From a virus (lineage: Duplodnaviria; Heunggongvirae; Uroviricota; Caudoviricetes), in the IMG/VR virus record IMGVR_UViG_2690316149_000023: 8,663 nt of DNA; one strand, 5' to 3'. The first letter of the stretch is position 1; each line of letters starts with the position of its first letter. Shown piece by piece: positions 3,268 to 7,458 of the stretch. The notes below the pieces were generated by a model. It was given only the letters and a program-made list of their open reading frames with translations. It was not told the origin of the DNA and did not search any database. A program made the position numbers and the translations under genes.

Positions 3268-3780
3268 ATGATGCCATTTGCTCGTTATTTCTGCATTTTC
3301 ATAAACGTTGGTTTGGGAGAAGGTTCGGCATTACCCGTTGGTGTGCCTGTTCCGTGGCCTTCCGCCACTCCGCCAACGGGGTGGCTAAAATGTAACGGAG
3401 CAGTATTTTCTTCTGAAAAGTACCCAAATCTGGCAAAGGCTTACCCAACATTAAAATTACCAGATTTACGCGGTGAATTTATTCGTGGCTGGGATGATGG
3501 GCGCGGGATTGACTCTGGTCGTAACTTATTATCTGCACAGAATGATGCAATTCAGAATATTGTTGGTTCTTTTGGGCGTACCCAGCTTTTTAGAGACGTA
3601 CTTAGTTCAGGGCCATTTAGTCAACATGGGCAAGTATTATCTACAGGTCTAAAGGAAGCCGAAATTATTGAGGGTTATGGCGCTTATAACTGGACATTCG
3701 ACGCATCTCGCTCAGTTCGCACAGCATCTGAAACCCGCTCCCGTAACATCGCCTTTAATTATATTGTGAGGGCTGCATGA
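3268..3780 (+). CDS. tail-fibre C-terminal variable segment (Sv1 cassette), duplicate copy lacking the constant N-terminal region; likely silent or promoterless
   Basis: From 3308 the sequence and translation ([66 protein letters not shown]...) are identical to the C-terminal half of the full-length fibre gene at 6139..6900. The PxGxxxPWP...GWLxCNG...LPDLRGxFIRG pattern is typical of Mu S / P1 S / e14 Stf-type receptor-binding ends. The ORF-track start at 3268 lies in the invertase promoter region and may not be used. Confidence 0.5.
3296..3321. other. invertase crossover site 1 (gix/pix/hix-like 26-bp site), next to the invertase promoter and start
   Basis: TTTTCATAAACG-TT-GGTTTGGGAGAA matches the Gin-family site pattern TTxTCxxAAACCxxGGTTTxxGAxAA at 25 of 26 positions. 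The 1,031-bp repeat identity begins exactly at the central dinucleotide (3308). Confidence 0.8.
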
Positions 3781-4338
3781 TAAGTAAAGCTGTATTAAAT
3801 AATGAACTCATCGCCACAAAGGCCGGAGACATTACCGTTTATAATTATGATGGTGAAACACGGGAATATATTTCCACATCAACTGAATATCTTGCTGTGG
3901 GTGTTGGTATCCCGGCATGTTCCTGTTTAGATGCTCCTGGCTCATATAAAGCTGGTTATGCAATTTGCCGTTCTGCAGATTTTAACTCATGGGAATATGT
4001 GCCAGACCATCGCGGTGAAATCGTCTATAGCACCGAAACAGGAGAATCAAAAGAAATCACAGTTCCGGGTGATTACCCTGAAAATACAACCACTATCGCC
4101 CCGTTAACGTCATACGATAAATGGGATGGTGAGAAATGGGTGACCGATACTGAGGCACAGCATAACGCCGCAGTAGACGCGGCAGAAGTACGGCGCCAGT
4201 CACTGATTGATGCTGCTATGGCTTCCATTAGTCTGATTCAGCTGAAATTGCAGGCCGGGCGGAAGCTGACGCAGGCAGAAACAACCCGGCTTAACGCTGT
4301 GCTGGATTACATTGACGCGGTGACTGCAACAGATACCA
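3308..4338. repeat. direct repeat copy A (1,031 bp), apparently identical to 6428..7458
   Basis: Identical translations and spot-checked identical nucleotide lines at a constant offset of 3120 bp (for example 3361 against 6481, 3781 against 6901, 4261 against 7381). Boundaries are defined by mismatches at 3307/6427 and 4339/7459. Confidence 0.85.
3777..4338 (+). pseudogene. tail-fibre assembly (chaperone) gene U1, duplicate copy truncated at its 3' end by the IS
   Basis: Identical to 6897..7458 of the intact 201-aa gene. Identity stops at 4338, where IS sequence begins. The ORF-track frame 3777..4727 reads through into the IS and is an artefact. Confidence 0.75.
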
Positions 4339-4364
4339 TTTTTACTGTAAAACCGTGGCCAATA

Positions 4365-5243
4365 TTACTTGACCACTACAAACGGCGTCAGCCCACCGTT
4401 ATAATGGTGAGGTCTGACGCTGTTGTAGTAGTTCAATATGTAATCATTAATTTGCTGCCGGGCCTCGTCCTTGCCTGCGTAACCATTCGTTGGCACCCAT
4501 TCTGTTTTCAGACTGCGGAAGAAGCGTTCCATGGGGCTGTTATCCCAGCAGTTTCCCCGCCGACTGACGCTTTGATTTATTCTGCAACGCCAGAGAAGTT
4601 GTTGATATTTAAGGCCTGTATACTGGCTTCCCTGGTCGCTATGGAACACGACATCCCGGGGTTGGCCACGCGTCTCATAGGCCATCCGCAGGGCACTGCT
4701 TATCAGTGCGGTATCGGCATGCGCTGACAGACTCCAGCCGATAACCCTGCGGGCAAAAAGATCCATAACAACCGCCAGATAGCACCAGCGATTTCCTGCC
4801 CAGAGATACGTAATATCTCCACACCATACCCGGTCTGGCTCCGGTACTGCGAACTGACGCTCAAGCAGATTCGGCAGGCTGGTATGCTCCTGACGGGCAT
4901 TTTTATACTGATGTTTTCCGGGCTGACAACTGCTCAGGTTCAGATATTTCATCAGACGTCCGGCACGGTAACGGCTCATCGGGACGCCGTTTTGAGTCAG
5001 CATTTCAGCCAGAGTGCGCGCGCCCGCAGAGCCCCGACTTTGGTTCCACGCCCGGCGTATTTCGCTGCACAACCTGACTCGTGCCGGATTAACCGTATCG
5101 CGTCGTTTTCGCCAGTACCGGTAACTGCTGCGGTGTATTTCCAGAGCAGAACACAGGCTGACAACCGTGTGGCTGTCACTTAGTCTGGCGGCTATCGTGA
5201 ACCGTTCAGCGAGTCGGACATTAAGAGCGCGGTAGCCTTTTTT
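4365..5243 (-). CDS. IS3-family transposase OrfB (DDE integrase-like catalytic domain), expressed as an OrfAB fusion by -1 frameshifting
   Basis: The frame is open from the slippery site to 4365 and sits in the -1 frame relative to orfA. The translation ([12 protein letters not shown] ... [28 protein letters not shown] ... HSDQGSQYT ... [19 protein letters not shown]) is typical of IS3-family OrfB. Confidence 0.85.
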
Positions 5244-5539
5244 AATATCGTATTTTGTTCCTCCAGACGGCGAACTTGCTTTTCCAGCTCGCGGATACGT
5301 TGCTGGTCTGGAGTAATGGGTGTGGCAGAGGGCGTAATACCCTGGCGCTCTCGCCTGAGCTGGCGTACCCAGCTCTCAAGCGTGGTTGAACCGACATTCA
5401 TCGCTTCACTGGCCTGTCGATATGAGTAGCCCTTATCAACAATCAGCTGTGCACATTCCAGCCTGAACTCAGGGGTGAAGGTTCGTTTGGTTTTCTTGTT
5501 CATTAAGTCACCTGTTTTGTGTTGTGGTGAGAATATCAC
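5192..5539 (-). CDS. IS3-family transposase OrfA (HTH and leucine-zipper regulatory protein), 115 aa
   Basis: [22 protein letters not shown] ... [18 protein letters not shown] closely resembles IS911 OrfA, including the C-terminal [13 protein letters not shown] segment. A6G slippery heptamer at 5237..5243 (minus-strand A AAA AAG). Confidence 0.9.
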
Positions 5540-5575
5540 CTTTCATCAGGTGGCCAAATTTAGTGTGCCACTACA

Positions 5576-6135
5576 TCCGCCTGTTATCGGCACTGTTGCC
5601 GCCCGGTCCGGCGTGGTCAGCCAGCGATCCGGCGATTGCCGGTGCGGCACCGTCATTAACCCGTGTTCATCAGCGTGCGGATGCCCTGATGCGGGAGCTG
5701 GATCCGCGCACCACCACCGAACTGATAAACCGCTGGGAGCGTCTGTGCGGCCTGCCGGATGAATGTATTCCCGCAGGGACACAGACCCTTCGCCAGCGTC
5801 AGCAACGGCTGGATGCGAAGGTTAACCTGGCGGGCGGCATCAACGAGGATTTTTATCTTGCACAGCTTGCTGCCCTGGGCAGACCAGATGCCACCATCAC
5901 GCGATACGACAAAAGCACCTTCACCTGCTCATCGGCCTGTACTGACGCGGTGAATGCGCCGGAATGGCGGTATTACTGGCAGGTCAACATGCCAGCTGCC
6001 ACCAACACCACCTGGATGACATGTGGTGATCCCTGTGATTCCGCACTGCGTATCTGGGGCGACACCGTTGTCGAGTGTGTGCTTAACAAACTCTGCCCTT
6101 CGCATACCTACGTAATTTTTAAATATCCGGAGTAA
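5576..6135 (+). pseudogene. P2 gpI / Mu gp48-family baseplate (tail) protein gene, 5'-truncated by the IS; only a few N-terminal codons appear to be missing
   Basis: Translation from the IS boundary begins [14 protein letters not shown]; the LLPxG motif sits at the extreme N-terminus of P2 gpI-like proteins, from memory. Gene position immediately upstream of the tail-fibre gene matches the conserved baseplate-then-fibre order. The ORF-track start (5524) lies inside the IS terminal repeat. Confidence 0.65.
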
Positions 6136-6138
6136 TCC

Positions 6139-6442
6139 ATGCATCGTATAGACACGAAAACCGCGCAGAAGGATAAGTTCGGCGCGGGTAAGAACGGTTT
6201 TACCCGTGGTAACCCCCAGACCGGCACACCTGCCACCGATCTGGATGATGACTACTTTGACATGTTGCAGGAAGAACTCTGCAGCGTGGTGGAGGCATCC
6301 GGTGCCAGCCTGGAGAAGGGGCGGCATGACCAGCTGCTTACCGCGCTTCGTGCGCTGCTGTTAAGCCGCAAGAATCCGTTTGGCGATATCAAATCTGATG
6401 GCACGGTGAAAACGGCTCTCGAAAACCTTGGTTTGGGAGAAG
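6139..6442. repeat. inverted repeat arm A (304 bp): fibre constant region plus crossover site
   Basis: Reverse complement of 8360..8663; identity checked at both ends and through identical N-terminal protein sequence. The true extent may be longer, since the partner arm runs off the window edge. Confidence 0.85.
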
Positions 6443-6900
6443 GTTCGGCATTACCCGTTGGTGTGCCTGTTCCGTGGCCTTCCGCCACTCCGCCAACGGG
6501 GTGGCTAAAATGTAACGGAGCAGTATTTTCTTCTGAAAAGTACCCAAATCTGGCAAAGGCTTACCCAACATTAAAATTACCAGATTTACGCGGTGAATTT
6601 ATTCGTGGCTGGGATGATGGGCGCGGGATTGACTCTGGTCGTAACTTATTATCTGCACAGAATGATGCAATTCAGAATATTGTTGGTTCTTTTGGGCGTA
6701 CCCAGCTTTTTAGAGACGTACTTAGTTCAGGGCCATTTAGTCAACATGGGCAAGTATTATCTACAGGTCTAAAGGAAGCCGAAATTATTGAGGGTTATGG
6801 CGCTTATAACTGGACATTCGACGCATCTCGCTCAGTTCGCACAGCATCTGAAACCCGCTCCCGTAACATCGCCTTTAATTATATTGTGAGGGCTGCATGA
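6139..6900 (+). CDS. tail-fibre protein (constant N-terminal region Sc fused to variable C-terminal receptor-binding region Sv1), 253 aa
   Basis: The N-terminal 101 aa ([17 protein letters not shown] ... [23 protein letters not shown] ...) resemble the conserved baseplate-attachment N-terminus of Mu S / e14 Stf-type fibres. The C-terminus carries the PWP...GWLKCNG...[17 protein letters not shown] motif. The reading frame runs straight through crossover site 2, and the stop overlaps the start of the downstream assembly gene (ATGA). Confidence 0.9.
6416..6441. other. invertase crossover site 2 (26 bp), inside the fibre gene at the constant/variable junction; direct orientation relative to site 1
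   Basis: CTCTCGAAAACC-TT-GGTTTGGGAGAA fits the Gin-family site pattern. The inner half is identical to site 1 and the whole site is identical (as reverse complement) to site 3. Confidence 0.8.
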
Positions 6901-7458
6901 TAAGTAAAGCTGTATTAAATAATGAACTCATCGCCACAAAGGCCGGAGACATTACCGTTTATAATTATGATGGTGAAACACGGGAATATATTTCCACATC
7001 AACTGAATATCTTGCTGTGGGTGTTGGTATCCCGGCATGTTCCTGTTTAGATGCTCCTGGCTCATATAAAGCTGGTTATGCAATTTGCCGTTCTGCAGAT
7101 TTTAACTCATGGGAATATGTGCCAGACCATCGCGGTGAAATCGTCTATAGCACCGAAACAGGAGAATCAAAAGAAATCACAGTTCCGGGTGATTACCCTG
7201 AAAATACAACCACTATCGCCCCGTTAACGTCATACGATAAATGGGATGGTGAGAAATGGGTGACCGATACTGAGGCACAGCATAACGCCGCAGTAGACGC
7301 GGCAGAAGTACGGCGCCAGTCACTGATTGATGCTGCTATGGCTTCCATTAGTCTGATTCAGCTGAAATTGCAGGCCGGGCGGAAGCTGACGCAGGCAGAA
7401 ACAACCCGGCTTAACGCTGTGCTGGATTACATTGACGCGGTGACTGCAACAGATACCA
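6428..7458. repeat. direct repeat copy B (1,031 bp), apparently identical to 3308..4338
   Basis: See copy A. Confidence 0.85.

What the first reader, a model, noticed from the sequence alone, without database searches (positions are those of the whole stretch)
3308..7458. Perfect 1,031-bp direct duplication of the Sv1-U1 cassette, with one junction exactly at the crossover dinucleotide and the other at the IS
Copy A (3308..4338) and copy B (6428..7458) appear base-for-base identical, which implies a very recent event or a mis-assembly. The left boundary coincides with the central TT of the 26-bp crossover site, which suggests the junction was made by the invertase. The right boundary of copy A is the IS edge. 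Deleting 3308..6427 would restore a textbook invertase-site-Sv-U-U'-Sv'-site-Sc layout, so the 3.1-kb block (copy A, IS, truncated baseplate gene, second constant region) looks like an insertion or duplication generated jointly by site-specific recombination and IS activity. The alternative is a chimeric assembly of a population that is mixed for segment orientation.
Basis: seen in the sequence. Interest (0 to 1): 0.6.

Follow-up and report, generated by a model that had tools for sequence, protein, structure and literature searches.

The report
Recent duplication flipped by Pin invertase
A defective E. coli prophage next to the tmRNA gene carries a very recent 3.1-kb duplication of part of its switchable tail-fibre region. 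The prophage's own invertase appears then to have flipped it. This is an ordinary strain-specific rearrangement, though it incidentally makes a three-site, four-form inversion system.

Summary
Window 3308..4338 and 6428..7458 are identical over 1,031 bp, and 6139..6442 is a perfect inverted copy of 8360..8663.

The locus is a Mu-like-tail cryptic prophage at ssrA with an intact Pin invertase and exactly three 26-bp crossover sites. These sites contain the repeat published for the e14 P segment. Complete E. coli genomes show the single-copy layout in both orientations, and deleting 3308..6427 restores it base for base.

The left repeat boundary is simply a normal Pin crossover junction. The right boundary is not a clean IS edge. 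tfaE joins, through an 11-nt overlap, to a flipped 42-nt tip of an IS3-family element. Then come 2 filler bases, and the IS resumes at position 66 with 12 nt lost.

Inverting siteL against siteR in silico turns the window into a head-to-tail tandem duplication of period 3,120.

Best reading (about 0.6): a recent tandem duplication made by two template switches, followed by one Pin inversion.

Mixed-orientation mis-assembly alone cannot create the novel joint. A chimeric artefact still cannot be excluded without reads. The joint occurs in no public collection searched.

Interest is low to moderate. The mechanisms are known, and three-site prophage inversion systems have been described before.

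The parts
40..402 (+). ssrA (tmRNA), the attachment-site landmark of the prophage remnant
   Evidence: ARAGORN. Annotated as ssrA at the same place in L002 and L011.
2687..3241 (-). pin, a small serine DNA invertase of 184 aa, intact (MLIGYVRVSTNDQ...)
   Evidence: Pfam Resolvase (1e-51) plus HTH_7. Translation. Annotated pinE in relatives.
3296..3321 (+). siteL: 26-bp crossover site (pin-side half plus Sv1-side half), central TT at 3308-3309
   Evidence: It contains TTGGTTTGGGAGAAGG, the repeat published for the e14 P segment (PMC12529663).
3308..4338 (+). Copy A of the 1,031-bp repeat. It holds Sv1 (variable C-terminal part of the tail fibre, not joined to a constant part here) and tfaE codons 1-187.
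4328..4338 (.). 11-nt microhomology AACAGATACCA, shared by tfaE and IS positions 43-53 (opposite strand)
   Evidence: It is the longest exact match between that IS strand and the Sc-G region.
4339..4380 (+). Terminal 42 nt of the IS, inverted relative to the IS body and ending exactly at the IS tip (...CCACTACA)
4381..4382 (.). 'AA' filler that replaces IS positions 54-65 (CTCTGACTCTTC)
   Evidence: All 12 other IS copies fetched have the canonical 12 nt.
4383..5575 (-). IS3-family element, positions 66-1258 of a 1,258-bp IS with IS911-like TG...CA ends. OrfA is intact. The last 18 aa of OrfB are replaced by 5.
5563..6135 (+). ymfQ (Mu gp48-like baseplate/tail gene). The IS replaces about 6 N-terminal codons. 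All prophage genes that lie upstream in intact relatives are absent.
   Evidence: Intact relatives.
6139..6900 (+). Complete tail-fibre gene Sc+Sv1 (253 aa)
   Evidence: 100% identical to L001.
6416..6441 (+). siteM: crossover site (Sc half plus Sv1 half), a direct repeat of siteL
6428..7458 (+). Copy B of the 1,031-bp repeat
6897..7502 (+). tfaE, a full-length tail-fibre assembly chaperone (201 aa)
7474..7917 (-). Second tail-fibre assembly gene (U')
   Evidence: Pfam Caudo_TAP
7920..8663 (-). Complete tail-fibre gene Sc+Sv' (247 aa). Its Sc part is the right arm of the inverted repeat.
8361..8386 (-). siteR: crossover site (Sv' half plus Sc half), inverted relative to siteL and siteM, central AA at 8373-8374
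6139..6442 (.). Left arm of the perfect inverted repeat. The right arm is 8360-8663. The repeat is cut off by the window end; the model predicts the identity extends left to 4383.
   Evidence: Prediction.

Best explanation
The locus is the right end of a Mu-like-tail prophage remnant at ssrA. It has a Pin-type serine invertase that swaps the C-terminal part of a tail-fibre gene, in the standard Sc / Sv-U / U'-Sv' layout.

In the ancestor the remnant had already been cut down by an IS3-family element sitting just inside ymfQ.

Proposed sequence of events:
1. The segment was in the state that joins Sc to Sv1, as in genome L001.
2. A 3,120-bp stretch (IS position 66 to its end, ymfQ, Sc, site, Sv1, tfaE codons 1-187) was duplicated head to tail.
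3. The novel joint looks like two closely spaced template switches. The growing strand left tfaE after AACAGATACCA. It re-paired on the same 11-mer on the opposite strand near the IS tip and copied 42 nt to the exact tip. It then added AA and resumed on the original strand at IS position 66.
4. The duplication created a third crossover site.
5. Pin then inverted everything between the two outermost sites. This gives the arrangement in the window: 1,031-bp direct repeats plus inverted copies of IS-ymfQ-Sc.

What is shown: the repeats, the three sites, the intact invertase, the anatomy of the joint, the single-copy layout in both orientations in other genomes, and the conversion to a tandem repeat by one in-silico inversion.

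What is inferred: the order of events, the template-switch mechanism, any role for a transposase nick at the IS tip, and that the sequence reflects real DNA.
For: - Exact repeats.
- Canonical single-copy locus in both orientations in complete genomes (L001 and L002; also L003/L004 and L022/L023).
- Removing 3308..6427 restores collinearity with L002, with 17 substitutions, all in pin.
- Exactly three crossover sites and an intact Pin. The site core equals the published e14 repeat.
- In-silico inversion siteL x siteR gives a period-3,120 tandem repeat with 1,320 bp of perfect identity running to the window end.
- Four isomers can be reached by inversions alone.
- Joint anatomy: an 11-nt overlap that is the longest match available in that orientation, a breakpoint exactly at the IS tip, and a 12-nt loss with a 2-nt filler.
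- The window begins at an ATG and ends at a start codon on the other strand, which suggests it was cut at predicted gene boundaries from a longer contig. If so, the inverted repeat is not a contig-end effect.
- Sequence quality is high: 1 mismatch in 3,997 bp against L001.
Against: - No reads are available, so neither copy number nor the joint can be verified.
- The joint is absent from 5,426 complete E. coli genomes, from GTDB representatives, from JGI metagenomes and from IMG/VR. The chimeric ORFs are not on record. It is therefore a singleton.
- The right arm of the predicted 2,060-bp inverted repeat lies outside the window, so the tandem model is verified for only 1,320 of about 3,090 bp.
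- No complete genome has this exact mosaic of the pin side (the lineage with the 502-aa gene) joined to this cassette. The unduplicated ancestor is therefore inferred from a relative whose pin differs by 17 substitutions (96.6% identity over 2825-3322).
- The second switch has no microhomology, which is unusual for pure template switching.
Confidence: 0.6

Rival explanations
1. Assembly or library artefact. The genome has the ordinary single-copy locus. The window is a chimeric consensus built from a culture mixed for segment orientation, plus a chimeric molecule or local mis-join at 4328-4383.
For: - Invertible segments really are mixed in cultures: 30% inversion of e14 in wild type, and coexisting variants.
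- A draft contig of a related strain (L021) ends 68 bp into an inverted Sc copy. It also has an 'N' at its own odd joint to the IS, which shows that assemblers do produce Sc-G-Sc(rc) paths here.
- The joint is a singleton in every collection searched.
- Perfect identity of the copies is what a collapsed or expanded repeat would also give.
Against: - Orientation heterogeneity creates only alternative junctions at the three sites. It cannot create tfaE->IS-tip or IS-tip->AA->IS-66, which need reads containing them. An 11-nt overlap is below the k-mer and overlap lengths that assemblers commonly use (my knowledge, not tested here).
- The window traverses a 1,031-bp repeat twice and at least 304 bp of an inverted repeat inside a larger contig. 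That normally needs spanning long reads.
- There is no sign of low-quality consensus.
Confidence: 0.25
2. Transposase-driven event. A second copy of the IS inserted into the first, or an IS end attacked its own element or a sister copy (intramolecular transposition). A later deletion reaching into tfaE then produced the present joint.
For: - One breakpoint lies exactly at the IS terminal ...CA, which is where an IS3-family transposase cleaves (established knowledge).
- The same IS is present in several copies in related strains and has eroded both Pin loci.
Against: - There is no target-site duplication. An insertion at position 65/66 predicts TTC before CGGCG, but AA is found. All 12 other copies carry the canonical sequence.
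- Only 42-53 nt of the supposed second copy remain.
- The other breakpoint is a microhomology joint, not an IS end.
- This route needs more steps than the template-switch model.
Confidence: 0.08
3. Pin-mediated insertion. A 3,120-bp circle carrying one crossover site was integrated by the invertase into the pin-proximal site. Equivalently, Pin recombined two sister chromosomes in different orientation states.
For: The block 3308..6427 lies exactly between the centres of two directly repeated sites. That is the geometry an integration would leave.
Against: - Wild-type Gin/Hin/Cin/Pin invertases are restricted to inversion between sites on the same supercoiled molecule, and do not normally fuse molecules (established knowledge, not tested here).
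- The circle would itself need the same illegitimate joint.
- The inversion-only route needs no unusual enzymology.
Confidence: 0.07

Closest known systems
e14 P segment / PinE of E. coli K-12, in the same class as Mu G/Gin, P1 C/Cin and Salmonella Hin
   Same: - A small serine invertase adjacent to the segment.
- The crossover-site core is identical to the published e14 repeat TTGGTTTGGGAGAAGG.
- The Sc / Sv-tfa / tfa'-Sv' layout.
- Both orientations are found among genomes.
   Different: - This copy sits in a Mu-like-tail remnant at ssrA, not in e14 at icd. The related complete genome, strain 602687, carries e14 as a separate locus.
- The segment is 1,947 bp rather than 1,797 bp.
- There are three sites instead of two.
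- The constant part is present twice, so both tail-fibre genes are complete at once.
Three-repeat, four-variant invertible tail-fibre locus of an EPEC prophage (Goldberg et al. 2014, PMC4272514), and the multi-site Min system of p15B (from my own knowledge)
   Same: One invertase acts on three or more sites, with nested small and large inversions and four interconvertible isomers.
   Different: In those systems the extra sites flank different cassettes and enlarge the repertoire. Here the third site comes from an exact, very recent duplication, adds no new cassette, and carries a truncated chaperone gene and a crippled IS.
Tandem duplications and 'tandem inversion duplications' with short-homology or template-switch joints in Salmonella and E. 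coli (Roth laboratory work; recalled from my own knowledge, not read here)
   Same: - Kilobase-scale duplication.
- A joint at short homology with a small inverted insert.
- A mix of direct and inverted copies.
   Different: Here the inverted copies are explained by a resident site-specific invertase rather than by snap-back replication.
IS3-family element (IS911-like ends)
   Same: - orfA/orfB with an rve DDE domain.
- TG...CA termini and imperfect terminal repeats.
- Annotated with a programmed frameshift in relatives.
   Different: - One tip is flipped and 12 nt are missing, so this copy lacks a normal end and its OrfB tail is altered.
- The canonical copy has no target duplication (flanks CAC and TCC), which fits an adjacent deletion.

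Membership tests
Pin/Gin/Cin/Hin-type DNA inversion system | Small serine recombinase with an N-terminal catalytic domain and a C-terminal HTH | tested here: met
   Pfam Resolvase 1e-51 plus HTH_7 3e-14. Intact 184 aa with YVRVST.
Pin/Gin/Cin/Hin-type DNA inversion system | 26-bp crossover sites in inverted orientation flanking the segment, with a 2-bp central overlap | tested here: met
   Three sites, 12+2+12, with TT/AA centres. The core equals the published e14 repeat.
Pin/Gin/Cin/Hin-type DNA inversion system | The segment is found in both orientations | tested here: met
   L001 against L002, L003 against L004, L022 against L023. This is between genomes, not within the source culture.
Pin/Gin/Cin/Hin-type DNA inversion system | Fis-dependent recombinational enhancer in the 5' part of the invertase gene | not tested
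   No scan for Fis sites was made. It is expected from homology only.
Multiple-inversion (shufflon-like) tail-fibre system | Three or more sites used by one invertase, giving more than two isomers | tested here: inconclusive
   Three equivalent sites and four isomers exist in silico. Coexistence of isomers needs reads.
Tandem duplication | Head-to-tail repeat of one unit with a single novel joint | tested here: inconclusive
   After one in-silico Pin inversion, a period-3,120 repeat is perfect for 1,320 bp up to the window end. The remaining 1.77 kb lies outside the window.
Mixed-orientation assembly chimera | Every unusual junction is an alternative junction at a crossover site | tested here: not met
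   Two junctions (4338/4339 and 4380-4383) lie away from any site and are novel.
IS3-family insertion sequence | Two intact terminal inverted repeats and a 3-4 bp target duplication | tested here: not met
   One end is flipped and separated from the body. 12 nt are lost. There is no duplication.
IS3-family insertion sequence | OrfA (HTH) and OrfB (DDE, rve) transposase | tested here: met
   Pfam and NCBIfam transpos_IS3, 6.7e-79.

The most novel reading that the evidence does not exclude
The window may capture the birth of a multi-site inversion system.

A tandem duplication supplied a third crossover site, and the resident invertase scrambled it at once. In two of the four isomers no long direct repeats remain within the window. 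In those forms homologous recombination can no longer collapse the duplication.

Both tail-fibre variants (Sc-Sv1 and Sc-Sv') are then complete at the same time. Chimeric tail-fibre proteins from the cryptic prophage e14 have been reported to block phage T2 adsorption (PMC12529663). Such an arrangement could therefore be selected as a host defence trait.
Probability: 0.12. Interest if true: 0.5.

Novelty: new member of a known kind. Interest (0 to 1): 0.3.

Why it matters
If real, this is a clean natural example of two things. First, a site-specific invertase can reshape an ordinary duplication into a mix of direct and inverted repeats that a reader could mistake for an insertion or a mis-assembly. 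Second, extra crossover sites, the raw material of multi-cassette tail-fibre shufflons, can arise in one step.

On the practical side, repeat boundaries at a crossover dinucleotide are expected at such loci and are not evidence of an unusual invertase reaction. The informative junction is the other one.

No new kind of system or protein is revealed.

Tried and rejected
1. Finding the source or a second carrier of the joint. Exact-pattern scans of GTDB representatives, JGI metagenomes and IMG/VR found nothing. A megablast of 4270-4450 against 5,426 complete E. coli genomes found nothing. Identity look-ups of the chimeric TfaE and OrfB proteins found nothing.

2. L021 (GCA_001283505.1) at first looked like independent support for an inverted IS-ymfQ-Sc block. 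Its joint contains an 'N', which I read as a scaffold join. Its extra 512 bp are 100% identical to the e14 cassette of related strains. Its contig ends 68 bp into the inverted Sc. It therefore illustrates the artefact rather than supporting the biology.

3. A nested IS insertion is rejected. There is no target duplication and the canonical 12 nt are missing.

4. A simple local inversion of the IS tip is rejected. The outer flank of the flipped piece is tfaE, not the ypjA remnant.

5. A simple deletion between the 11-nt repeats would explain junction 1 only.

6. Search for a closer unduplicated relative with the same pin-side mosaic: none exists among the complete genomes.

7. The 502-aa neighbour has no Pfam or NCBIfam family and only an insignificant PADLOC hit.

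
Full report
**1. Observation**

Base-by-base extension shows that window 3308..4338 equals 6428..7458 exactly: 1,031 bp at an offset of 3,120 (seeded by family D1). Identity in 50-bp blocks on either side drops to 14-36%. A second feature belongs to the same structure. Window 6139-6442 is a perfect reverse complement of 8360-8663, and this repeat is cut off only by the end of the window.

The window starts with an ATG that overlaps the tmRNA gene and ends on the start codon of a minus-strand gene. 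That suggests it was cut at predicted gene boundaries from a longer contig, in which case the inverted repeat is not a contig-end effect.

**2. What the locus is**

- ARAGORN finds ssrA at 40-402.
- Pfam identifies the following:
  - a small serine recombinase (ORF 2687-3277, minus strand; the 184-aa pin is 2687-3241);
  - tail-collar fibre domains (3268-3780 and 6139-6900);
  - two tail-fibre assembly chaperones;
  - an IS3-type OrfA and OrfB (minus strand, 4365-5539);
  - a Mu gp48-like protein (ymfQ);
  - a gp53-like fibre C-terminus (7920-8663, minus strand).
- Megablast against 5,426 complete E. coli genomes finds parts of the window everywhere, but no genome holds 80% of it in one place.

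Two complete genomes give the reference layout. In strain CD45 (L002) the order is:

ssrA ... pinE(-) - site - Sv1 - tfaE - tfa'(-) - Sv'+Sc(-) - ymfQ(-) - IS3-family(+) - ypjA remnant.

Strain 602687 (L001) has the same locus with the segment between the sites inverted. Other strains carry the full Mu-like prophage with baseplate and tail genes at this position, again in both orientations. This is therefore an ordinary Pin-type invertible tail-fibre region in a prophage remnant truncated by an IS.

**3. Sites and enzyme**

There are exactly three crossover-type sites:

| Site | Coordinates | Sequence | Orientation |
|---|---|---|---|
| siteL | 3296-3321 | TTTTCATAAACG TT GGTTTGGGAGAA | reference |
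| siteM | 6416-6441 | CTCTCGAAAACC TT GGTTTGGGAGAA | direct repeat of siteL |
| siteR | 8361-8386 | TTCTCCCAAACC AA GGTTTTCGAGAG | inverted relative to both |

They contain the 16-nt repeat reported for the e14 P segment (PMC12529663). Pin is intact.

The pin-site-Sv1 junction at siteL is the normal junction of one orientation state. L002 is collinear with window 2825-4338, with 17 substitutions that all lie inside pin. The repeat therefore begins at the central TT because Sc-Sv1 and pin-Sv1 are the two normal products of inversion. No special event needs to be invoked for that boundary.

**4. The other boundary**

The reference IS is 1,258 bp with TG...CA ends (L001 7936-9193). Its ymfQ-side end is unchanged in the window (5575, same flank).

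At the other side the window reads as follows:
- tfaE ... GCAACAGATACCA;
- TTTTTACTG...CCACTACA, which is the reverse complement of IS positions 1-42 and ends exactly at the tip;
- AA;
- CGGCGTCAGCC..., which is IS position 66 onward.

The 11 nt AACAGATACCA (4328-4338) belong both to tfaE, as copy B shows, and to IS 43-53 on the other strand. This is the longest exact match between that strand of the IS and the whole Sc-segment region. IS positions 54-65 are missing. All 12 other copies of this IS that I fetched carry them.

As a result, TfaE copy A stops being native after residue 187 and runs on as a 316-aa chimera. OrfB also loses its last 18 residues.

The joint occurs in none of the 5,426 complete E. 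coli genomes. Exact scans of GTDB representatives, JGI metagenomes and IMG/VR found nothing. The chimeric proteins are not on record.

**5. Reduction to a simple event**

Inverting the window in silico between the centres of siteL and siteR yields a head-to-tail repeat of period 3,120. Positions 4224-5543 equal 7344-8663, perfect for 1,320 bp up to the window end. The window is therefore one Pin inversion away from a plain tandem duplication of this unit:

IS 66-1258 - ymfQ - Sc - site - Sv1 - tfaE codons 1-187.

The only novel sequence is the joint described above.

Four isomers are reachable by inversions alone:
- Two have long direct repeats. In the tandem form these span the whole unit, and in the window form 1,031 bp.
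- Two have only inverted long repeats within the window.

Removing 3308..6427 reproduces L002 exactly in length and order (2,719 bp, 17 substitutions in pin).

**6. Mechanism (inferred)**

The simplest history has three steps:
1. The segment was in the Sc-Sv1 state.
2. A replication error with two template switches made the duplication. The nascent strand left tfaE at the 11-mer and paired with the same 11-mer on the opposite strand 2.1 kb behind. It copied 42 nt to the IS tip, added two bases, and resumed on the original template at IS position 66.
3. Pin inverted between the outer sites.

The stop exactly at the IS tip suggests a break or protein block made by the transposase. This is not shown.

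Zero differences in 1,031 + 304 bp, against 1 difference in 3,997 bp to another strain, indicate a very recent event.

**7. Rivals**

- **Assembly or library artefact.** A population mixed for orientation can make an assembler place Sc on both sides of the segment. Draft contig L021 does this and ends 68 bp into the inverted Sc. Its own odd joint to the IS carries an 'N', and the extra piece is 100% identical to the e14 cassette of related strains. Such heterogeneity creates only alternative junctions at sites, not the two novel junctions at 4338-4383. An artefact would therefore need an additional chimeric molecule in the consensus. Without reads I cannot exclude it (about 0.25).
- **Nested IS insertion.** Rejected because of the absent target duplication and the missing 12 nt.
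- **Pin-mediated integration of a circle.** It fits the geometry but not the known restriction of these enzymes to inversion in cis (established knowledge).

**8. Comparison and novelty**

The system is a member of the Pin/Gin/Cin/Hin class by every feature tested. The enhancer was not tested.

Three-site, four-variant prophage tail-fibre inversion loci are already described in EPEC (PMC4272514), and larger ones in p15B (my own knowledge). Duplications with short-homology or template-switch joints are also well known.

What is particular here is the combination: a fresh duplication that supplies the third site and has been re-arranged by the resident invertase. This leaves both tail-fibre genes complete at once.

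The remnant lacks the tail and baseplate genes that lie beyond ymfQ in intact relatives, so a role in virion host range is unlikely. A host-level role such as the reported receptor blocking by e14 fibre chimeras is speculative.

**9. Verdict**

The feature is a strain-specific, recent structural variant explained by known mechanisms. Interest is 0.3.

Noticed in passing
window 949-2457 (+): A 502-aa ORF lies between ssrA and pin, at the prophage end where cargo genes often sit. It has no Pfam or NCBIfam family and only an insignificant PADLOC hit (LmuA, E=0.007). It is present in 106 index blocks of public assemblies, and sits next to pin in all eight loci shown.
   Followed up: partly
window 2825-3322 compared with L001/L002: The locus is a mosaic. 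The pin side belongs to the lineage with the 502-aa gene. It has 17 substitutions against L002, all between 2894 and 3113. From 3114 onward, the cassette, Sc, ymfQ and IS are essentially identical to the L001/L002 lineage. No complete E. coli genome has this combination.
   Followed up: partly
L021 8515-9028 and 12798-12865: Draft scaffold GCA_001283505.1 joins the same pin side to an e14-type cassette, then an 'N', then IS position 274 onward. It ends 68 bp into an inverted Sc. It is likely a scaffolding or mixed-orientation artefact, and a warning for this kind of locus.
   Followed up: yes
L024 8365-11036 (strain 602687, e14 at icd): The same 1,258-bp IS also sits in e14 right after pinE-site-Sv''-tfa'', next to a truncated tail gene. 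In this lineage, copies of one IS have eroded both Pin-controlled tail-fibre loci.
   Followed up: partly
window 4365-4440 (-): The joint changes the end of the transposase OrfB from ...[23 protein letters not shown] to ...[10 protein letters not shown]. It also separates one terminal repeat from the element. This IS copy is probably immobile.
   Followed up: yes
window 5563-5575 and L001 7921-7936 / 9193-9208: The annotated ymfQ start (GTG) lies inside the IS terminal repeat. The reference IS has no target-site duplication (flanks CAC and TCC). This fits an IS-associated deletion that removed the rest of the prophage.
   Followed up: partly
window 1-120: The window begins with an ATG-initiated ORF that overlaps the tmRNA gene. 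It is probably a spurious gene call that set the window boundary.
   Followed up: no
window 6139-6900 and 7920-8663: Because Sc is present twice, both Sc-Sv1 and Sc-Sv' are complete ORFs at the same time. The two-site locus never allows this.
   Followed up: partly
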